Shown here: one piece after another, positions 2,521 through 9,986 of the stretch
How positions within the stretch are numbered: position 1 is the first letter of the stretch
Layout: each line of letters begins with the position of its first letter
Virus record (IMG/VR): IMGVR_UViG_3300014527_000045
Span: 1 to 16,698 of that record
From: a virus
Taxonomy: Duplodnaviria; Heunggongvirae; Uroviricota; Caudoviricetes
DNA length: 16,698 bases
Direction: 5' to 3' (one strand)
The notes under the pieces: generated by a model
The model's database searches: none
What the model saw: the letters and a program-made list of their open reading frames with translations, nothing else
What the model was told of the DNA's origin: nothing
Made by a program: the position numbers and the translations under genes

Positions 2521-3204
2521 TTAAGGCATTCTATTCTCAAAAACATGCTTTATCGCAGTGGTAAAGCATCTATCTTTTACATTCTTTTTAAACTCATCAA
2601 AGACCATAGATCTAACATCTTCAATTTCACATCCTGATTCAATAAGCTGAGATGCACATCCGACCAGTTCCTTTATTAATGTCATGCTTAATTCTATTGC
2701 ACGTCTTCTTTCCGCCTTGACTCCTCCTGAGGACGGGTTTAAGTTAAATACTCTTAACGTAACCTCTGCCATTTTGTGTTCTTTCTCATTCAAGCCTTCT
2801 CTAATATGAACATCACCATTTTCCAAAAAATGGAAAAAAACATCTGGATTTTGTCTATCAGCTTTAATTAAATCATCATCGTTATATTTTTGCTTATCCT
2901 TATAAAACCCACACCTTTGCGGCTCACCACATGAGCCAAACAAATTAGACCACTCGAAAGTTAAATTTTTGTAATAACTTTTCCTGTAAAAATGTTCAAT
3001 ATGCCTCTCAACTTTATTTTTGCCACCACTTTTATGATGCTCTATTTTTTTCTCGCAATAAGCACATAATTTACCTTGCATTTTTATTATTTCTTCCCAT
3101 ATTTCTTTTTTATCATTTGATGATAGGGAATTCCAATCATCCCTCCTATAGTCAAATTTATTAAGAACGGAAGGCCCTGGCATTTGCCTAGATAGATATT
3201 TCAT
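2521..3204 (-). CDS. HNH-family nuclease (PtuB-like effector of the retron/Septu-type cassette)
   Basis: 227 aa with CAYCEKK...HIEHF...W.NL..SCGEPQRC, an HNH-type Cys/His arrangement. Its start at 3204 overlaps the ATPase stop at 3201-3203. AT-rich. Confidence 0.75.
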   Translation of the reverse strand: MKYLSRQMPGPSVLNKFDYRRDDWNSLSSNDKKEIWEEIIKMQGKLCAYCEKKIEHHKSGGKNKVERHIEHFYRKSYYKNLTFEWSNLFGSCGEPQRCGFYKDKQKYNDDDLIKADRQNPDVFFHFLENGDVHIREGLNEKEHKMAEVTLRVFNLNPSSGGVKAERRRAIELSMTLIKELVGCASQLIESGCEIEDVRSMVFDEFKKNVKDRCFTTAIKHVFENRMP

Positions 3205-4586
3205 TTTACATCCTTACTTCCAGAAAAGTGCTGATTTATCTTATTTTTGAACTCCAAAACAGATATAAGATCATCACACTCTTGAACTAAAGGATGGTCT
3301 AATCCGAAATGTTTAATAACTTTTTCTCTTAACAAAAGAGCCTCGTCACTGCTATAACGATTAAGCTCAACCAATTTTTTATATTCTTCAAGCCAACCAT
3401 TTTCTTTAGTAGAGGGTATAGGATCAGTTCTCATTCCATATAAAAGTGCATCCTGATTACTAACACCTTTTATTTGATAGTCGGGGTGAGACACTATCAA
3501 ATCATTAACACCATCTACTTCCACTTCCTGTAGAATACGCACTGAACGAGAGCTAACAGTGGATAAAACCTGTGGGCTATGGGTAGTAATTACAAATTGA
3601 ACATTTGGGAATGTAGATGTCAAACGCTCAATAATTGTCTGTTGCCATTGCGGATGCAAATGCAAATCAATTTCATCAATTAAAACAATCCCATATCCCA
3701 ATAGAGGATTAGATAAATTTGGATTAAGTAAAATTAAACGTCGAGCCAAATCACCAACTAAAGTAAATATAGTTTTCTCACCTTGAGACAACTGTTGAAT
3801 ATCTAATTCAACCTCTCCTTTTTTAAGGATAATCTTATAATCATCATCACCATAAACAAGCTTAATCCACTGAAATTCAGGCAAGAACTTTAGAATGGTA
3901 TTTATAACACTATCATAAAGTGATACTGCATTATTAAACTTATGTTCTCCTGATTGCAGAGATTTCATGTAGTTCAATTTTTCTTTAAGCGAAAGCTCTA
4001 AACCTTTTATAACTGTTGAATCAATATTATCAATCGCAGATAGTTGAGTTAATGTTGCTTTCAAACTCTGAATATCTGAAAATAACGCATTGATTGTCGT
4101 TTGTGACTCACTCAATTTCTCTTGTGAAGCTCTGTTATGAAGAAATACAAGCCATTGAAAAAAATCGGTAAAATCATTTCTGTCAAACTCGATTTCATCA
4201 TACACATCGAATTTTGACCATACAGTTTTAGTTTTAGCATTTTTTCTTTTCCTATCAACCCCACCGCCTATATAAGAACGCGCAATAGAATAATATGCCA
4301 TCAAAGGCAAGCTTGCATTATCAACATATTTATTCACAAGTCTATAAATACTTGCAAGTTTTTTTATCTCCAACAATTCATTATTTCTAGAATAATATGC
4401 CCCCTCTTTCGCTTTAGTAATCAAAATACTGGTATTAAAGTCCTTGAGTTTTATATTTGCATCAATTGATGCATACTCAACATCAACAGAGTTATTAACT
4501 TCATGGCTTTTAATATAAGTACCAGGCTTACTCTCCTTTTCAATATTTGATCTCAACCAACTCAAAACAATTGCTATTGCATCCAA
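3201..4586 (-). CDS. ABC-type (AAA_15/AAA_21-like, PtuA/OLD-like) ATPase; the N-terminal Walker A region is disrupted upstream of the annotated start
   Basis: Contains LSQGEKT (ABC signature-like), IVLIDEIDLHLHPQWQ (Walker B/D-loop) and VITTHSP (H-loop). The ORF as listed starts at a TTG and lacks a P-loop. Immediately upstream, in the same frame, the DNA reads VYMILNG-TAA-DGFGKSTILDAI, a Walker A motif GxxxxGKST with the stop at the first x (minus-strand codon at 4611-4613). Confidence 0.8.
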   Translation of the reverse strand: MDAIAIVLSWLRSNIEKESKPGTYIKSHEVNNSVDVEYASIDANIKLKDFNTSILITKAKEGAYYSRNNELLEIKKLASIYRLVNKYVDNASLPLMAYYSIARSYIGGGVDRKRKNAKTKTVWSKFDVYDEIEFDRNDFTDFFQWLVFLHNRASQEKLSESQTTINALFSDIQSLKATLTQLSAIDNIDSTVIKGLELSLKEKLNYMKSLQSGEHKFNNAVSLYDSVINTILKFLPEFQWIKLVYGDDDYKIILKKGEVELDIQQLSQGEKTIFTLVGDLARRLILLNPNLSNPLLGYGIVLIDEIDLHLHPQWQQTIIERLTSTFPNVQFVITTHSPQVLSTVSSRSVRILQEVEVDGVNDLIVSHPDYQIKGVSNQDALLYGMRTDPIPSTKENGWLEEYKKLVELNRYSSDEALLLREKVIKHFGLDHPLVQECDDLISVLEFKNKINQHFSGSKDVK

Positions 4587-4596
4587 AATAGTGCTT

Positions 4597-4785
4597 TTAC
4601 CGAATCCGTCTTATCCGTTTAAAATCATGTATACCTATTTTATTTAAATGAAACTTACTCTCATTTAAAGTAGATATTAGCTTTTGAAGCTCAACAGACT
4701 CCTTCAAATAATCCTCGTTTATCACATGTGATTCCAACTCTAAAAAATCAACATAGCAAGTCTCTAAATTCATTTTATTTATCAT
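4597..4785 (-). CDS. Short ORF coupled to the RT stop; probably the displaced N-terminal segment of the ATPase gene rather than an independent protein
   Basis: Its ATG overlaps the RT stop (TAATG). The 62-aa product ends ...KFHLNKIGIHDFKRIRRIR, which resembles the N-terminal strand of ABC ATPases, but it is in a different frame from the Walker A segment and overlaps it on the DNA. Confidence 0.4.
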   Translation of the reverse strand: MINKMNLETCYVDFLELESHVINEDYLKESVELQKLISTLNESKFHLNKIGIHDFKRIRRIR

Positions 4786-5720
4786 TATTTGTTTCCTTCC
4801 ATCAGGAACTTAGTTATTAACTCACAACCATATTTTTTTTGTAACCTTAATAAAAAATCACCCTCCAAATAATTTGCAAACGCAATCATCCCTTTGGTTT
4901 TATTTATTTCTTCGGAAGATAAGAGTCCCAAAGAATATTTATGAATCTTTGCAAACAGCATCCTTTTACGATCGCGACCAATTGATAAATTGCCCTGAGG
5001 TGTAAGTGTTACACCAGTCACGTGCCGATTATGAGCCATCGATGTAAAAATTGTTTTAGATTCATTGATTGATAGACCGGGAACATGGAGCGACAACATT
5101 TTTTTTACCACCTTAGGAACCCTGCACAATATATCCTTAATATTAGTTGAAAAAGTTATATCATCTGCATACCTTGAATAAGTGATACCATTGTTACGGC
5201 ACCAATCATCAAGACTCTTGTCAAAGTCATACATAACAAAATTACTAATAAATGGTGAGCTTGGCGCCCCTACACTTAATATCAACGTTGTACTTCTCTT
5301 TTTTCCCGGACGCCAAAAAAGCAAATTACGTAGGGTGTTCTCATCAAATGAATCCAATTTCAGCCCTGTGTTCTCAAGTTTCGAGAAAAATATATCAGGT
5401 TTAATTTTGTTAAAGAAGTTCTGAAAATCCATTTTAAGAATATAATTATTATCTTTATGCAACAATGCATTATCTTTAATACTTTTTTTATATTCATATG
5501 CCATTGCCTTATGATGAACAGGCAGCTTTGGCTGTAGCAAAGATACTATAAATCTCTGTACGTTTTTTAGTTCCTTTGTCGGCTGAGCTATCACCCGAAA
5601 ACCTGCGCCACGTTTAGGAATATAATAAACTTTATATTTTTTGGGGGCCTCATTTAAAAGTAATTGGAAAGCTAATCTATTATAATTAAACTTACTGATA
5701 ATTTTAGAAGTTAGTTGCAT
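4785..5720 (-). CDS. Retron-type reverse transcriptase
   Basis: 311 aa with YYIPKRGAGFRVIAQP (RT motifs 1/2), ILKMDFQNFF (motif A), GAPSSP, YSRYADDITF (YxDD catalytic motif), SINESKT (motif D) and HNRHVTGVTL (the VTG triplet typical of retron RTs). It is collinear with my recollection of the Ec86 RT. AGAGGGG lies 7 nt upstream of the ATG. Confidence 0.9.
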   Translation of the reverse strand: MQLTSKIISKFNYNRLAFQLLLNEAPKKYKVYYIPKRGAGFRVIAQPTKELKNVQRFIVSLLQPKLPVHHKAMAYEYKKSIKDNALLHKDNNYILKMDFQNFFNKIKPDIFFSKLENTGLKLDSFDENTLRNLLFWRPGKKRSTTLILSVGAPSSPFISNFVMYDFDKSLDDWCRNNGITYSRYADDITFSTNIKDILCRVPKVVKKMLSLHVPGLSINESKTIFTSMAHNRHVTGVTLTPQGNLSIGRDRKRMLFAKIHKYSLGLLSSEEINKTKGMIAFANYLEGDFLLRLQKKYGCELITKFLMEGNK

Positions 5721-5739
5721 ATAACCCCTCTTAAAACCA

Positions 5740-5950
5740 AAGCGCCATGCAACTTTACATAGCGCTTTGACTCTTCACTAAAGACAGCGAAAGACACAGA
5801 TTTCTCCTTCGCATATCTGCCCCGGGCAGGGATGCGAAGGAGAAATCTGTGTCTTTCGCAACCCTAAACCGGACAATAAATTTAAGCCTGGCTAATCACC
5901 CGGCTGGAACCAATGTTCCTACACTAAAGAGCGTAATGATTTTAATGAAC
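5740..5950 (-). ncRNA. Candidate retron msr/msd non-coding RNA region, including a long msd-like hairpin (5787-5859)
   Basis: Directly upstream of the RT on the same strand. Perfect 28-nt inverted repeat (5787-5814 pairs with 5832-5859) around a 17-nt, partly self-complementary loop. I could not find the a1/a2 inverted repeats by eye, so the boundaries are provisional. Confidence 0.45.
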
Positions 5951-5965
5951 AAATAGATATAAGGC

Positions 5966-5984
5966 AAGGCGCGCGCTCGTATCC
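5966..5984 (-). other. Putative cos (cohesive end) site of a P2/186-family phage
   Basis: The minus strand reads GGCGTGGCGGGGA at 5984-5972, matching the first 13 nt of the 19-nt 186/P2 cohesive end as I recall it (GGCGTGGCGGGGAAAGCAT / GGCGAGGCGGGGAAAGCAC). The downstream 6 nt diverge. Orientation and position (between the right-end genes and the portal 3' end) fit. Confidence 0.45.
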
Positions 5985-6033: not shown

Positions 6034-6063
6034 CTACGCAAAAGCCCGCCAGTTCTGGCGGGC
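6034..6063 (-). terminator. Putative intrinsic terminator of the tum/dinI transcript
   Basis: GC stem gcccgcc / ggcgggc (6044-6050 and 6057-6063) with a 6-nt loop, followed on the minus strand by TTTTG. Confidence 0.45.
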
Positions 6064-6198
6064 CTTAGCAAAAACGATCCTCAAACGATCATGCGATCTC
6101 ATGCGGCATAGACATGCACTACAGAGCTAACGCCTCGCAAGGGCTCGTTGTTCAACCTTGCTGACGCCAGAAACAAGTTCAGACGCCAGCAACGTTTC

Positions 6199-6432
6199 TT
6201 AATGCAGCCAGCTGTCGTCTTCCCACACCTTCTGCATAATTTTCATCACTTGTTTTCTTTCTTCGTCCAGTTGCAGTCCGGTCAGTTCCACACCGTTAGA
6301 GCTACCTTTGCGGATACGAATTACCGTTTTGGGATACAGGGGGCGCAGATTGCGGTAAAGCTCGGATTCAAGGGCGTCCAGTGTAGACTGGCTAATCTTC
6401 TGCTCTTTATCGATCATTATTTCAATGCGCAT
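6199..6432 (-). CDS. dinI: DinI-family protein (phage 186 orf97-like)
   Basis: From the internal ATG at 6432 the product is MRIEIMIDKEQ...KVWEDDSWLH (77 aa), collinear with E. coli DinI as I recall it (MRIEVTIAKT...ETWESADDWF). GAGGTGA lies upstream of this ATG. The ORF track extends further upstream, but that overlaps the preceding gene. Confidence 0.75.
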   Translation of the reverse strand: MRIEIMIDKEQKISQSTLDALESELYRNLRPLYPKTVIRIRKGSSNGVELTGLQLDEERKQVMKIMQKVWEDDSWLH

Positions 6433-6442
6433 AAAAGTCACC

Positions 6443-6631
6443 TCAGCTGATGACATCCATTGAGCGGTTGTATTCGTGGGTTCTGATTTTTGCCATGAGT
6501 TCATCTGTCAGTTCAGAAACCCACTGCAGGGCCAGCCCCTTCTCTTCATCACTACACTCACTAGCCGCTACAAGCTTAAGAAAAAAATCAATGCGCTGGA
6601 GCTTCAAAGACTCCAAAAAATAGTCCTGCAT
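6443..6631 (-). CDS. tum: Tum-like SOS-inducible antirepressor candidate (small protein upstream of dinI-like gene)
   Basis: 62-aa ORF with AGGAGG 5 nt before the ATG, immediately downstream of LexA-box-like sequence and followed by the DinI-like gene. This mirrors the phage 186 SOS operon (tum, then orf97) located between gene A and cos. The protein itself is not recognised by sequence. Confidence 0.5.
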   Translation of the reverse strand: MQDYFLESLKLQRIDFFLKLVAASECSDEEKGLALQWVSELTDELMAKIRTHEYNRSMDVIS

Positions 6632-6783: not shown

Positions 6784-9156
6784 TTAATACAGGTTTCGCC
6801 ACTTATCATCTTCCTGCAAACGCTGGTTCCGATAGAAGATACGTAGGCCTGCTCCTGACGGAATACTGCCGCCGCGAAGCAGTAAATCGACCTCTTTCTC
6901 GCTGCCATCAAATCCCCTGGACTTCAGTTCATACACGAGCTGCAGTCGCTGATGGTCTGTAATTCGCTGTTTGTAGTCTTTACGCCGTTTCGGTTTCACC
7001 AGGCGTAACCTTGCTGCCAGTTCCCGGCGCTCTTTTTTGCTCATACTGTGCAGGTAATCGTGCAACTCCTTGTCATCCATGCGGGTGATATCCGTTCTGG
7101 TATCTCCATCAGTTGATTTGTCTTTCCCTTGTTGGTACAAATTTTCAGCAAGGGGACAGTTATTGCCACGAGTCCAAGGGGCGCAAGCGCCCTGGTCGGC
7201 TGCCGCCTCCTGAACGTCAACGGCTTTACGAACCATTTTCCACTTCACTGCATGAGTGCAGATCTTACCCTCTGCAATGGGTGACCAGATGCCATAAATA
7301 CGAATACCGTGATCGCCATAGGCGGTCGGCTCTTCGTTAATTTCATAAGCTGTTCTGATAAGGTGATATTTGCGGGGAACCAGCACGCCGCCCTGCTTCA
7401 TGATGTAGGTGGCAAAACAGCCAGCATCAGCAGCAGCCAGGATGGCATCAAGGCGTGGGTTATCCAGTACCGGCGCACCTGCTTTTTTGTCCCCCTGCTG
7501 CCTTGCCGCCTGACCAGCCAGCAATCGCAGTTCACGGTAAGCCTGACGCCCCGGAATACCAAAGAAGCGGAATTGCTGAACACGATGCAGAGACGCCCAG
7601 GCATTAACGTATTCAGCGTTATCACGCAGGGATTTACCCGTTTCCTTGCTGATCTCACCAGCCAGACCACGCCCGTCAATGTTCTTACTGATGTATTTCG
7701 CGATGTAGCTTGTTGGCGTACCTTTGCGCGGGTTTATCAGCTCAGACTTAAAGCGTGGTCCCGTGTTATTACCCAGCTCCTCGCGGTCTTCACGAATGGC
7801 AAACTTACGCAGTAATGCAGTGATGGCGCGGCGGTCTTTTTTGCGCATAAAACACAACAGGTGCCAGTGAACTGTACCGTCATGATGCGGCTCAGCCACC
7901 CGCACGCCATACCAGCGCAATCCGGCTTTGTGCATCGCCTTACGAAATGCAGCAAACATGCCGACCAAATAATCACTGCTTTGTCTTACTGTCGCGTTGG
8001 TCCAGGTCGGGTTTGGCCTGCCGTTATTTAGCGTGGAATGGAAACGTGACGGACAGGTGATGGTGTAGAAAACGGCGCAGTCACCACGCATTTCCGCGAT
8101 AAGCTCCAGGCCTTTAACACAGGCCATCATCTCGTTGCGGCGATGCGCCGGGTTGCTGCTGCTGGCGTTTACCACATCCTCCATGTTCAGCGTGTCGCCG
8201 TCTTCGTTCACCAGTTCATGAGAACGGAAAAACTCCAGCGACTTACGGCGCTGCTCACGTTTATGCATCACGGCTTCATAGCTGACATAGGGAGATGCTT
8301 TTTTGCTGACCAGGCAGACAGCACGCAACTGCTCTTCCCGCCATTCGCAACGCATCTTCCATAATTTCCGATACCACCAGTCGGCGCACAGCATACGCGC
8401 CAGCGAACCCGGAATGAGTTCATAAGGCACAGGTTTGCGGCGGTTTCTTTTCCGGCGGAGTTGCTCAAACGCAGGCGGTATGACATCCAGTCGCAGGGTT
8501 TCTGCAGCCACCTTTTCCCATGTCTTGCGGATTTCTTCTGGCTTAACATCATCGGTGGCATACAAATCACCACAAGCTACATCAAGGCACATACTCATAT
8601 GCGCAGCTACCAGGGTGGACAGGCGTTTCACCTGATCCTGACTCATTTCAGGCAGAATCAGCAGGCCGTCCAGCCCTTCATGGCTTGCCATAAAGCGAAA
8701 AGAAGTGGATAGCTGACTGTCGCGTACATGCTCCAGCCGTTCCAGACATGGCTTAATCGTCTCACGCAAATAGCGGGAATAAGCCTTTGGCCTGCCAAGG
8801 CTGCTGAAGTATTCAATACGTTGCATCAGCGGCTTGCTGATATGGGAAGGCTGGGCATTGACGTCCGCCAGAATGACCATATCTGGATTAAAACGCTGCT
8901 GCTCATGCGCCAGCTTTGCCCGACTAATGAGCTTATCCTGCTCCATTTCGCGCTGGACAGGATCACGGGATTCATTAAAGAAATAACGCTCCCAGACCTG
9001 ATCACTCAGTACCTCGCGGCGCAGGTGTTCCTGCTCGTTATCGGCAGCGTACAGAGCGATCAGGTTTGAAAGCGCAGAAACTGAAGATTGCTCTTCTGTC
9101 TCTACGTAAGGATTGATTGCTTTTTTCTCAGCATTCCAGGAATAGCTGTAGTTCAT
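6784..9156 (-). CDS. Replication initiation protein, P2 gpA-like (rolling-circle nicking enzyme)
   Basis: 790-aa ORF whose size and position (between the early region and the right-end/cos region) match gene A of P2/186 phages. Its start overlaps the stop of the upstream gene. The plus-strand ORFs inside it are antisense artefacts. Confidence 0.85.
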
Positions 9157-9986
9157 TACGCAATCTCCAGTTCGAGCTGTGAAGGCTGCAAACCATTCGA
9201 CAGCCAGTCAGAAACTGAAGGTGGGCGAACAGCTTCAATTGCACCTTTTAAAATTGCGCAACGGTTTTTCAGAATGACAGCTTTCAGCTCCTTTTCCGTC
9301 AGATTGCGCGAATACTCAGCCTCCTGAATAGCCCGCGTAAGCTCAGGATATTTGCTATTAAATTTGGGGACATTGCAGGCAAGATTTGTACTGTCGGCAG
9401 TCGCCAGTGGGTAATTTCCCAACACACGACCGTCAAGCATGCGCAAACCATGAACAGCTGTTTTGAAATTGTGTCGGCAATAAATTGCTTCAAAAGCGTC
9501 CTGCATACGACGATGCCAGTGCGCAGTTCTAATAGCCGCATATTCACCAGACGATCCAAAGCAGACACGAGGCCATTCACGACATAGCTCGATAAGCCGA
9601 TCGATTGACTCGTGCAGATGCCAGACGGGAGTTGCCTTCCCGTAGAACATTTTCGGAACTTCGTTTATCAGGGCATCATTGTCACGTTCACCTCCGTCCA
9701 CAACATCAGGAATGACAAAAAAAGCGACCTTAGGATGGTGGTAATAGTTCAGGAGCCATTTATAAAAATCACTCCAGTTAATTTTTAGCCCACGCCCCCA
9801 TGCAGAAAATGCGCCGTTATCAATGCCAACGACCTGAGCGTGCTGAATGGACGCCGCAATCTGATCTGGTCGTACATAGGAGACGAAAGCACCAGCTCCG
9901 CTCACCGCAATACGATGAACGTCGCCAGCACTTCCCCAGACAGGCGTCCCATGGAAATGATGAATTCCGTGGTGCATTTCTTTCAC
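9156..9986 (-). CDS. Conserved phage protein of unknown function, co-transcribed with Dam
   Basis: 276-aa ORF overlapping Dam at its 5' end (9983-9986) and gene A at its 3' end (9156). I do not recognise the family. Confidence 0.6.

What the first reader, a model, noticed from the sequence alone, without database searches (positions are those of the whole stretch)
5776..5933. Long, nearly perfect hairpin upstream of the RT: candidate msd; a1/a2 repeats not found
5787-5814 (gcgaaagacacagatttctccttcgcat) is the exact reverse complement of 5832-5859, giving a 28-bp perfect stem. The 17-nt loop is itself mostly self-complementary (ctgccccgggcag). This is the size and form of a retron msd stem, predicting an msDNA of roughly 75-85 nt, and it sits in the RT leader between an upstream terminator and the RT ribosome-binding site. 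However, the inverted a1/a2 repeats that normally flank msr/msd were not identifiable by eye. Instead a 9-bp direct repeat, cactaaaga, flanks the hairpin at 5776-5784 and 5922-5930. The ncRNA architecture may therefore be atypical, or the element may be something else.
Basis: seen in the sequence. Interest (0 to 1): 0.7.

Follow-up and report, generated by a model that had tools for sequence, protein, structure and literature searches.

The report
Known retron msd hairpin (type I-A)
The long hairpin is the DNA-templating (msd) part of the non-coding RNA of an already characterised E. coli anti-phage retron, and the "missing" flanking inverted repeats are present but short and partly wobble-paired, so the finding is correct but ordinary.

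Summary
There is a perfect 28-bp inverted repeat at 5787-5814/5832-5859, extended by a 6-bp tip, and a 9-nt direct repeat at 5776-5784/5922-5930. The interpretation as a retron msd is right. The doubt about an atypical architecture is not.

On the minus strand, 5932->5770 is a canonical 163-nt msr-msd ncRNA:
- a1, GCUCUUUA, 5932-5925
- branching G, 5924
- two msr stem-loops
- the msd hairpin
- opposing G, 5778
- a2, UGAAGAGU, 5777-5770

a1/a2 form 8 pairs, 2 of them G·U, which is why they were missed at the DNA level. The helix covaries across 14 related ncRNAs.

The ncRNA and the 311-aa RT are 100% identical to the E. coli FORC_082 type I-A retron (RT + PtuA ATPase + PtuB HNH). That retron's cryo-EM structure (PDB 9n69) and ~90-nt msDNA are published. 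The predicted msDNA here is 96 nt, or 92 nt after Ec78-type 5' trimming.

The direct repeat is the sequence around the branching G recurring around the opposing G. It varies between clades, appearing in 9 of 17 ncRNAs and not in Ec78.

The one local peculiarity is a 50-bp frameshifting deletion in PtuA, so defence is probably dead here. Novelty: already known.

The parts
5939..5967 (-). Sigma-70-like promoter of the ncRNA/RT operon: -35 TTGCCT at 5967-5962, 17-nt spacer, -10 TAAAAT at 5944-5939. It places the transcription start at about 5931-5933, which is the first base of a1.
   Evidence: Consensus scan. The position relative to a1 is read from the sequence. Not tested experimentally.
5770..5932 (-). 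Complete 163-nt msr-msd ncRNA precursor, from a1 through a2.
   Evidence: 100% identical to the FORC_082 ncRNA. Covariance model R1 scores 176.9 bits. The MFE fold gives the canonical retron architecture with z = -9.9.
5925..5932 (-). a1 inverted repeat, GCUCUUUA.
   Evidence: Pairs 8/8 with a2, as 6 Watson-Crick and 2 G·U pairs. The helix is predicted by MFE and by RNAalifold. Pairs 1 and 3 covary across 14 ncRNAs.
5924..5924 (-). Branching (priming) G, directly after the conserved UUA. It corresponds to G8 of the FORC_082 ncRNA if numbering starts at C5931.
   Evidence: Invariant G in 17 of 17 related ncRNAs. 'Priming guanosine (G8)' and A7 are named in PMC12475279. The 2'-5' linkage cannot be tested here.
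5906..5919 (-). msr stem-loop 1 (GGAAC-AUUG-GUUCC).
   Evidence: RNAalifold, with 4 of 5 pairs showing changes on both sides.
5885..5905 (-). msr stem-loop 2 (AGCC-G-GGU GAUUA GCC-A-GGCU), the RT-thumb handle in the Ec78 and FORC82 structures.
   Evidence: Core of the Rfam msr alignment. 100% of cells paired across 14 sequences, with one compensatory pair C-G/U-A. The structural role is taken from PMC12673091 and PMC12819146.
5866..5884 (-). Conserved linker ('clamp', UAAAUUUAUU, 5884-5875) and termination/template-end sequence (GUCCGGUUU, 5874-5866). Reverse transcription is inferred to stop opposite G5874.
   Evidence: Alignment to Ec78, where rG59-rU67 pairs with the msDNA 3' end dA69-dC77. 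This is an inference by homology.
5779..5874 (+). Predicted msDNA (plus-strand sequence, 96 nt: TAAAGACAGCG...AACCGGAC). It would be 92 nt (5783-5874) if the first 4 nt are removed as in Ec78.
   Evidence: Boundaries come from the opposing G and from homology to the Ec78 structure. The DNA fold gives a 28+6-bp hairpin at -41.1 kcal/mol. A ~90-nt msDNA was measured for the identical FORC_082 retron (PMC12475279).
5787..5859 (.).
   Evidence: 22 of 28 msd-helix pairs show compensatory changes in relatives.
5778..5778 (-). Opposing G, facing the branching G at the top of the a1/a2 helix. The base 5' of it (A5779) templates the first msDNA nucleotide (dT).
   Evidence: G in 17 of 17 ncRNAs. The concept and numbering come from the Retron-Eco7 structure paper PMC12673091.
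5770..5777 (-). a2 inverted repeat, UGAAGAGU.
5776..5784 (.). Direct-repeat copy 2. On the minus strand it reads UCUUUAGUG: the first six templated nucleotides, the opposing G, and the first 2 nt of a2.
5922..5930 (.). Direct-repeat copy 1. On the minus strand it reads UCUUUAGUG: the last 6 nt of a1, the branching G, and UG.
5733..5769 (-). Stem-loop after a2 (14 bp, -21.2 kcal/mol) followed by GUUUU, just upstream of the RT ribosome-binding site GAGGGG (5730-5725). Probably an attenuator or partial terminator between the ncRNA and the RT.
   Evidence: (I4). A hairpin of different sequence sits at the same place in 11 of 14 related loci. It is also part of the STnc400 model alignment. The function is inferred.
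4785..5720 (-). Retron reverse transcriptase, 311 aa, intact. Motifs: NALLH at 84-88, YADD at 184-187, VTG at 234-236.
   Evidence: Pfam RVT_1. PADLOC RT_I-A at 434.6 bits. NCBIfam retron_St85_RT at 321 bits against a cutoff of 235. 100% identical to the FORC_082 RT. PDB 9n69_E matches full length at 697.9 bits.
3201..4785 (-). PtuA SMC-like ATPase effector gene, disrupted. A 50-bp deletion at about 4608/4609 shifts the frame before Walker A, leaving a 62-aa and a 461-aa ORF.
   Evidence: PADLOC PtuA/ATPase_I-A matches both fragments. The deletion was mapped against L001, L003 and L020. NCBIfam PtuA scores 401.6 bits, below its cutoff of 500.
2521..3204 (-). PtuB HNH nuclease effector, 227 aa, intact.
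   Evidence: PADLOC PtuB at 389 bits. NCBIfam PtuB at 160.7 bits against a cutoff of 150.

Best explanation
Region 5770-5932 (minus strand) is the msr-msd non-coding RNA gene of a type I-A retron (Ec78/Eco7-like: RT + PtuA + PtuB). The retron is carried as cargo of a P2/186-like prophage, and its ncRNA and RT are identical to those of the structurally characterised E. coli FORC_082 retron. The mechanism below is inferred from homology and from published work on the identical or related systems.

1. Transcription starts at about 5932 from the promoter at 5967-5939.
2. The RNA folds so that a1 (5932-5925) pairs with a2 (5777-5770). This places the branching G5924 opposite G5778.
3. The RT binds msr SL2 and primes from the 2'-OH of G5924. 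It copies the msd template from A5779 through the 28+6-bp hairpin and stops opposite G5874.
4. RNase H removes the template. Host processing (ExoVII in Ec78) probably trims the first 4 nt and debranches the DNA.
5. The resulting ~92-96-nt hairpin DNA is the scaffold on which four PtuA and one or two PtuB subunits are held inactive. Phage nucleases (T5 D15, T3 exonuclease) degrade it and release the toxin.

In this particular window the PtuA gene is frameshifted. msDNA should still be made, but the defence output is probably lost.

The 9-nt direct repeat is not a separate element. It is the sequence at the branching-G junction recurring at the opposing-G junction.
For: - Anatomy: the perfect 28-bp stem. 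The MFE of 5765-5935(-) gives a1/a2, SL1, SL2 and msd with z = -9.9.
- Rfam: msr matches 5868-5932(-) at 45.9 bits, E = 5e-7. STnc400 matches 5729-5866(-) at 71.4 bits, E = 7e-14.
- Identity to a characterised system: the ncRNA is 163/163 identical to FORC_082. The RT is 311/311 identical and matches PDB 9n69/9n6b/9n6c chain E full length. The FORC_082 retron was shown to make a ~90-nt msDNA and a ~40-nt ncRNA and to defend against T3 and T5 (PMC12475279).
- Boundary method check: the same rule extracts a 144-nt ncRNA with 8-nt inverted repeats from ECONIH5. This matches the published Ec78 description exactly (PMC12819146).
- Comparative: model R1 finds a full-length ncRNA immediately upstream of the RT in 9 loci from other bacterial genera with RT identity of 45-50%. 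Of all cells, 97.3% are paired against 77% in shuffles and 41-46% when partners are slid. 29 of 48 pairs change on both sides. a1/a2 pair 1 occurs as GC/UA/AU/GU and pair 3 as UA/CG/UG. The branching G and the opposing G are present in 17 of 17 ncRNAs, and a1:a2 pair 8/8 in 16 of 17.
- Gene context: PADLOC RT_I-A, PtuA and PtuB. NCBIfam agrees. RefSeq annotation of the near-identical loci agrees.
- A promoter-like site is correctly placed.
Against: - No RNA or msDNA data exist for this exact host.
- Both Rfam hits fall below their curated gathering scores (45.9 < 52; 71.4 < 80), and nothing was reported at gathering thresholds.
- The stop position of reverse transcription and the 4-nt 5' trimming are transferred from Ec78, whose RT is only 49% identical. 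They were not shown for this ncRNA in the text I could read.
- PtuA is disrupted here, so the complete system as described in the literature cannot assemble from this locus.
Confidence: 0.95

Rival explanations
1. The hairpin is a transcription terminator or insulator of the upstream phage genes (DinI-like / orf at 6199-6631) or of the prophage backbone. On this reading it is unrelated to the RT.
For: It lies in an intergenic region downstream of a minus-strand DinI-like gene. Long GC-containing hairpins can terminate transcription.
Against: - No U-run follows either arm, and the terminator scan does not call it.
- A separate terminator-like hairpin with a T-run already sits at 6038-6069 (I5).
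- The sequence is absent from 50,697 phage records.
- Every occurrence inspected in E. coli genomes and in IMG/VR lies about 50 nt upstream of a retron RT.
- Stem sequences differ between relatives but keep pairing, together with the msr and a1/a2 elements.
Confidence: 0.01
2. A small mobile element (MITE- or IS-remnant-like palindrome) inserted with a 9-bp target-site duplication, the direct repeat CACTAAAGA.
For: Direct repeats flanking an inverted repeat are the classic signature of transposition. The 9-mer occurs only at these two sites in the window.
Against: - The repeats do not abut the inverted repeat symmetrically: 2 nt on one side and 62 nt on the other.
- The 62 nt are the conserved msr.
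- The whole 163 nt is conserved as one RNA unit in loci from other bacterial genera.
- The repeat is in register with the two functional Gs and decays gradually across clades (6/7, 5/7, 3/7, 0/7) instead of being all-or-none.
- No extra copies of the palindrome exist elsewhere in E. coli genomes except at retron loci.
Confidence: 0.01
3. The region encodes a trans-acting small RNA (Rfam STnc400-type sRNA) rather than, or in addition to, a retron template.
For: The best Rfam hit by score is STnc400, 'Gammaproteobacterial sRNA' (71.4 bits). STnc400 is listed as an sRNA in Salmonella transcriptome and Tn-seq studies.
Against: - The STnc400 alignment covers exactly the msd hairpin, the opposing G, a2 (UAAAGAGU in the consensus) and the post-a2 hairpin. 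The model therefore describes the 3' half of a retron ncRNA.
- The hit is below the gathering score.
- No target or Hfq evidence was examined here.
Confidence: 0.03

Closest known systems
Type I-A retron of E. coli FORC_082 (George et al. 2025, Nat Commun, PMC12475279; PDB 9n69/9n6b/9n6c)
   Same: - The 163-nt ncRNA is identical.
- The RT is 100% identical and gives a full-length PDB match.
- The PtuB protein (WP_023135320.1) is the one annotated in the near-identical loci L001 and L003.
- The cargo position between the portal gene and DinI/gpA of a P2/186-like prophage is the same.
- The predicted 92-96-nt msDNA agrees with the ~90 nt measured.
   Different: The window's PtuA carries a 50-bp frameshifting deletion that is absent from FORC_082. 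The flanking prophage differs by about 0.4-3% depending on the segment, and it has its own indels.
Retron-Eco7 / Ec78 (E. coli ECONIH5, strain 102598; PMC12819146, PMC12673091, PMC12804668)
   Same: - The operon is the same: ncRNA-RT-PtuA-PtuB.
- It has the same 8-bp a1/a2, with CUCUUUA-G invariant.
- It has the same SL2, linker and AGGGUUGCGAAAG / CUUUCGCU stem base.
- The same mechanism is expected: the msDNA hairpin scaffolds PtuA4-PtuB2, and phage nuclease D15 triggers it.
   Different: - The RT is only 49% identical.
- The Ec78 msd stem is 22 bp, its ncRNA 144 nt and its msDNA 77 nt. Here the figures are 28+6 bp, 163 nt and 96 nt.
- Ec78 lacks the in-register direct repeat: it has UCCUCAAG before the opposing G (3/7 identity to a1).
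- Ec78 sits in a different genomic context, an IS-flanked island rather than a P2-like prophage.
- The reported tRNA targets differ: Tyr for Ec78 and Ser for FORC82.
Retron-Sen2 / St85 family and Rfam RF00170 (msr) / RF02058 (STnc400)
   Same: NCBIfam places the RT in the 'retron St85 family'. The msr and the msd/a2 regions align over the full length of both Rfam models.
   Different: Both scores are below the gathering thresholds. PADLOC prefers RT_I-A (434.6 bits) over RT_II-A (368.9 bits). The effectors are PtuA/PtuB, not the St85-type effector.

Membership tests
Retron (general) | RT of the retron clade with the NAXXH and VTG motifs and a YADD active site | tested here: met
   NALLH at 84-88, YADD at 184-187 and VTG at 234-236, read from the translation. 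PADLOC retron RT models and NCBIfam retron_St85_RT score above cutoff. The motif definition is taken from PMC12475279.
Retron (general) | ncRNA directly upstream of the RT with inverted repeats a1/a2 closing the msr-msd unit | tested here: met
   a1 at 5932-5925 and a2 at 5777-5770, 8/8 paired, 2 of them G·U. Predicted by MFE and by RNAalifold. Covariation at pairs 1 and 3 across 14 ncRNAs, with 98.2% of cells paired.
Retron (general) | Conserved branching G immediately 3' of a1 (after UUA), facing an opposing G | tested here: met
   G5924 and G5778. Both are invariant in 17 of 17 related ncRNAs.
Retron (general) | msd region forming a long stem-loop that templates the msDNA | tested here: met
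   A 28+6-bp hairpin. 22 of 28 helix pairs show compensatory changes.
Retron (general) | Production of 2'-5' branched RNA-linked msDNA | not testable with these tools
   Shown experimentally only for the identical ncRNA+RT of FORC_082, which gives a ~90-nt msDNA (PMC12475279).
Retron type I-A (Ec78/Eco7-like) | RT groups with type I-A RTs | tested here: met
   PADLOC RT_I-A is the best hit at 434.6 bits, against RT_II-A at 368.9 bits. The nearest PDB chains are the FORC82 and Ec78 RTs.
Retron type I-A (Ec78/Eco7-like) | Intact SMC-like ATPase (PtuA) encoded downstream of the RT | tested here: not met
   The gene is present but split by a 50-bp frameshifting deletion that removes the segment before Walker A. 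NCBIfam PtuA scores 401.6 bits against a cutoff of 500. The locus is a type I-A retron with a pseudogenised effector.
Retron type I-A (Ec78/Eco7-like) | HNH nuclease (PtuB) encoded downstream of PtuA | tested here: met
   PADLOC PtuB at 389.2 bits and HNH_I-A at 191.5 bits. NCBIfam PtuB at 160.7 bits against a cutoff of 150.
Rfam RF00170 msr | Score at or above the curated gathering threshold (52 bits) | tested here: not met
   45.9 bits, E = 4.9e-7, with the full model length 1-69 aligned. No hit in gathering mode. The Rfam seed is biased to other retron types. A homemade type I-A model scores 176.9 bits, but the window sequence is part of that model's seed.
Rfam RF02058 STnc400 | Score at or above the curated gathering threshold (80 bits) | tested here: not met
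   71.4 bits, E = 7.4e-14, with the full model length 1-125 aligned over msd + a2 + post-a2 hairpin.

The most novel reading that the evidence does not exclude
The in-register repeat UCUUUAG(UG) at both the branching-G and the opposing-G junctions might be functional rather than incidental. It makes the first nucleotides of the msDNA (5'-TAAAGA) a DNA mimic of a2 (UAAAGAG consensus). That DNA could compete for a1 after RNase H action and so promote opening of the a1/a2 helix, debranching by ExoVII and loss of a1/SL1, which is the processing seen in Ec78 and FORC82 complexes. The repeat recurs in several distinct lineages (the E. coli P2-borne clade, Shewanella, Cellvibrionaceae, three IMG/VR variants) but not in Ec78 or Methylococcaceae. 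Separately, the PtuA-null allele could represent natural selection against effector toxicity, leaving an msDNA-only retron.
Probability: 0.08. Interest if true: 0.35.

Novelty: already known. Interest (0 to 1): 0.1.

Why it matters
It matters little for discovery. This ncRNA, its RT and its msDNA-scaffolded PtuA/PtuB complex have already been solved by cryo-EM and tested against phages.

The result does have three practical uses:
- It gives base-level annotation of an element that RefSeq leaves unannotated ('none' under the match) and that Rfam misses at gathering thresholds.
- It shows that short, wobble-containing a1/a2 repeats of type I-A retrons escape DNA-level inverted-repeat searches.
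- It flags that Rfam's 'STnc400 sRNA' family appears to model the msd half of such retron ncRNAs.

The frameshifted PtuA is a small natural-history note. It is consistent with the reported toxicity-driven inactivation of this ATPase in the laboratory (PMC12475279).

Tried and rejected
- Rfam at gathering thresholds over the whole window gave nothing. Only the E-value mode exposed msr and STnc400.
- I first considered a 9-bp pairing UUAAAAUCA (5945-5937) with UGGUUUUAA (5739-5731), I12, as a1/a2. I rejected it. It lies upstream of the likely transcription start and overlaps the -10 box. It would put the post-a2 hairpin inside msd. It is not conserved in N10, AREA497 or Ec78.
- I initially recorded a2 as 5776-5770. 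Base-by-base indexing corrected this to 5777-5770.
- I suspected that the PtuA deletion was mediated by a 7-bp ATCCGTT microhomology. Checking showed the repeats are 59 bp apart, not 50, and the junction has at most 1 nt of homology, so I dropped the claim.
- The phage-collection search for the ncRNA returned no match.
- The miRNA and snoRNA Rfam hits on the hairpin (mir-2068, mir-254 and others) are generic hairpin matches far below gathering scores, and I ignored them.
- The terminator and MITE/target-site-duplication readings are rejected for the reasons given under the rival explanations.
- I did not use the large protein searches, structure prediction or fold search. Identity to a PDB entry made them unnecessary.

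Full report
**Observation.**
- 5787-5814 is the exact reverse complement of 5832-5859. The longest perfect inverted repeat in the segment is 28 nt.
- With two mismatches the arms extend to 36 nt, 5787-5822/5824-5859. The '17-nt loop' therefore forms a further 6-bp CTGCCC/GGGCAG helix with a 3-nt loop.
- Stability is far beyond chance. The DNA fold of 5779-5874 has z = -14.0, and the RNA fold of 5765-5935(-) has z = -9.9.
- The 9-mer CACTAAAGA occurs exactly twice in the 16.7-kb window, at 5776-5784 and 5922-5930.
- A direct repeat of that length arises in about 3% of shuffles of the 163-nt segment.

**Context.** The hairpin sits 67 nt upstream of a 311-aa minus-strand ORF, 4785-5720.
- The ORF is a retron reverse transcriptase: Pfam RVT_1, PADLOC RT_I-A at 434.6 bits, and NCBIfam retron_St85_RT above cutoff. 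It carries NALLH, YADD and VTG.
- Downstream lie PtuA (ATPase) and PtuB (HNH) homologues.
- The cassette is cargo of a P2/186-like prophage, between the portal gene and the DinI-like/gpA genes. Terminase, portal, gpA, Dam, CII, Cox, CI and integrase are all recognisable. Host genes appear from about 15.2 kb.

**What the hairpin is.**
- At Rfam's gathering thresholds nothing is reported. In E-value mode the minus strand matches msr (RF00170) at 5932-5868 (45.9 bits, E = 5e-7, full model). It matches STnc400 (RF02058) at 5866-5729 (71.4 bits, E = 7e-14, full model).
- The MFE structure of the minus-strand RNA is the textbook retron ncRNA. A terminal helix is followed by an unpaired G, two small msr stem-loops, an unpaired linker, and the long msd hairpin.
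- Base-by-base: a1 is GCUCUUUA at 5932-5925. The branching G is 5924. SL1 is 5919-5906 and SL2 is 5905-5885. The linker and termination sequence span 5884-5866. The msd hairpin is 5859-5787. The opposing G is 5778. a2 is UGAAGAGU at 5777-5770.
- a1 and a2 form 8 pairs, of which 2 are G·U (G5932·U5770 and U5926·G5776).
- A sigma-70-like promoter (-35 at 5967-5962, -10 at 5944-5939) places the start of transcription at the first base of a1.

**Identity with a characterised system.**
- The region is 99-100% identical to four complete E. coli genomes, including strain FORC_082. The 163-nt ncRNA is identical to FORC_082's, and the RT is 311/311 identical.
- The RT matches chain E of PDB entries 9n69, 9n6b and 9n6c over its full length at 697.9 bits.
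- George et al. 2025 (PMC12475279) cloned this FORC_082 type I-A retron. They showed defence against T3 and T5 and purified a complex containing a ~90-nt msDNA and a ~40-nt ncRNA. They named G8 as the priming guanosine, which is G5924 if numbering starts at C5931.
- As a check on my boundary rule, the same extraction from E. coli ECONIH5 gives 144 nt with 8-nt inverted repeats. That is exactly what Wang et al. report for Ec78 (PMC12819146).

**Comparative test.**
- Five distinct E. coli ncRNAs (window/FORC82, N10, AREA_497, Ec78 of ECONIH5, ECNB21-M121) align over their whole length. RNAalifold returns a1/a2, SL1, SL2 and msd, with 14 compensatory pairs.
- A covariance model built from them finds a full-length ncRNA just upstream of the RT in nine further loci. 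Their RTs are only 45-50% identical, and they come from Vibrio cholerae, Shewanella, Cellvibrio, Ketobacter, Methylococcaceae and others.
- On the 14-sequence alignment 97.3% of cells pair, against 77% in shuffles and 41-46% with partners slid. 29 of 48 pairs change on both sides. In the a1/a2 helix, pair 1 occurs as GC/UA/AU/GU and pair 3 as UA/CG/UG. That alignment is fitted to the model, which favours the structure. The independent MAFFT+RNAalifold result agrees.
- Across 17 ncRNAs, a1:a2 pair 8/8 in 16, and both Gs are invariant.

- The ncRNA has no match in 50,697 phage records.
- All seven IMG/VR contigs carrying the conserved stem-base motif have a full-length ncRNA and an RT about 50 nt downstream.
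- Every E. coli locus inspected is a retron.
- The hairpin is therefore not an RT-independent terminator or insulator.

**msDNA prediction.**
- In Ec78 the first DNA base is templated by the nucleotide 5' of the opposing G, and synthesis stops opposite rG59 of the UUAUUG|AACG linker (PMC12673091 and PMC12819146).
- Transferring this through the alignment gives a 96-nt msDNA equal to plus-strand 5779-5874. It would be 92 nt (5783-5874) if the first four nucleotides are removed and the DNA debranched as in Ec78. This is an inference by homology.

**The direct repeat.**
- On the RNA strand both copies read UCUUUAGUG. Copy 1 is the last 6 nt of a1, the branching G and UG. Copy 2 is the first six templated nucleotides, the opposing G and the first 2 nt of a2.
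- The two copies are therefore in register on the two functional Gs.
- Part of the similarity is forced. The pre-a2 tract is pyrimidine-rich because it pairs with the conserved GGG 5' of the msd stem (pairs at columns 105-108/210-213).
- The core TCTTTAG recurs in register in the window clade, in L015 and in three IMG/VR variants, with CCTTTAG in Shewanella. That is 9 of 17 ncRNAs. Identity falls to 3-5/7 in Ec78, ECNB21, V. cholerae and Cellvibrio, and to 0-1/7 in Methylococcaceae.
- Ec78 makes msDNA without the repeat, so it is not required. Its extension to 9 nt here comes from the same A->G change in a2 that creates the U·G wobble.
- A transposon-style target duplication is excluded. The repeats enclose the conserved msr as well as the hairpin, and the whole unit is conserved as one RNA.

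**Mechanism.** Steps 1-3 are shown for the identical or related systems in the literature. Their application to this locus is inferred.
1. The RT primes on G5924 and copies msd.
2. RNase H and host nucleases mature the product.
3. The hairpin DNA scaffolds PtuA4-PtuB and keeps it inactive until phage nucleases destroy it.

**Local peculiarity.**
- The window is otherwise identical to IMG/VR UViG_3300014532_000123, with 0 mismatches over about 14.5 kb.
- Relative to that contig and to FORC_082 and strain 98208, it has a 50-bp deletion in PtuA. The deletion shifts the frame just before Walker A GFGKST. None of the four complete E. coli genomes has it.
- It also has a 22-bp frameshifting deletion in the terminase and a 6-bp duplication in the portal gene.
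- This copy should therefore still make msDNA but is unlikely to defend. George et al. noted spontaneous ATPase frameshifts under toxicity selection.

**Verdict.** The 'atypical architecture' caveat is resolved: a1/a2 are present and the repeat is explained. The element is an already known, structurally solved type I-A retron, so interest is low.

Noticed in passing
window 3201-4785 (-), deletion junction at ~4608/4609: The PtuA ATPase gene is split into a 62-aa and a 461-aa ORF by a 50-bp frameshifting deletion just upstream of Walker A (GFGKST). The deletion is absent from FORC_082, strains 98208 and 98233, LR778148, and the otherwise identical IMG/VR contig L020. The retron effector is probably inactive here.
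   Followed up: yes
window ~750 (terminase, + strand) and ~2294-2302 (portal): There is a 22-bp frameshifting deletion in the terminase large-subunit gene, which shows as two ORFs (148-789 and 753-1463). The portal gene has a 6-bp CCGGGA tandem duplication plus one substitution. Both are relative to L020 and L001. The prophage looks defective, or the record carries indel variants with no accompanying SNPs.
   Followed up: partly
window 5733-5769 (-): A 14-bp stem-loop followed by GUUUU lies between a2 and the RT ribosome-binding site. A hairpin of unrelated sequence, often with a U-run, occupies the same position in 11 of 14 type I-A loci. It is probably an attenuator or terminator that uncouples ncRNA and RT levels.
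   Followed up: partly
window 5729-5866 (-): The Rfam family RF02058 'STnc400 Gammaproteobacterial sRNA' aligns end to end with the msd hairpin, opposing G, a2 and post-a2 hairpin (71.4 bits). This 'sRNA' family appears to be the 3' half of St85/Ec78-type retron ncRNAs. Salmonella papers still list it as an sRNA.
   Followed up: partly
window 9156-9986 (-): A 276-aa ORF between gpA and the Dam methylase has no Pfam or NCBIfam hit. It matches phrog_887 'queuine tRNA-ribosyltransferase' (DpdA-like) at E = 8e-96, covering profile positions 5-311 of 509. The segment 9081-10062 has no counterpart at this position in the FORC_082 and 98208 prophages.
   Followed up: partly
window 6038-6069 (-): A GC-rich hairpin GCCCGCCAG/CTGGCGGGC followed by UUUUG lies downstream of the DinI-like gene. 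It is the likely true terminator upstream of the retron promoter. The consensus scan did not call it because the T-run has only 4 T.
   Followed up: no
L002 (E. coli N10), L016 (AREA_497), L021-L023 (IMG/VR): Several P2-like prophages carry diverged type I-A retrons at the same portal/DinI cargo site. Where scored, their RTs are about 53-55% identical and their ncRNAs about 78-85% identical to the window. The msd stems differ by compensatory changes, while the stem base, a1/a2 and msr stay fixed. This suggests diversification of the msDNA shaft and tip within one insertion hotspot.
   Followed up: partly
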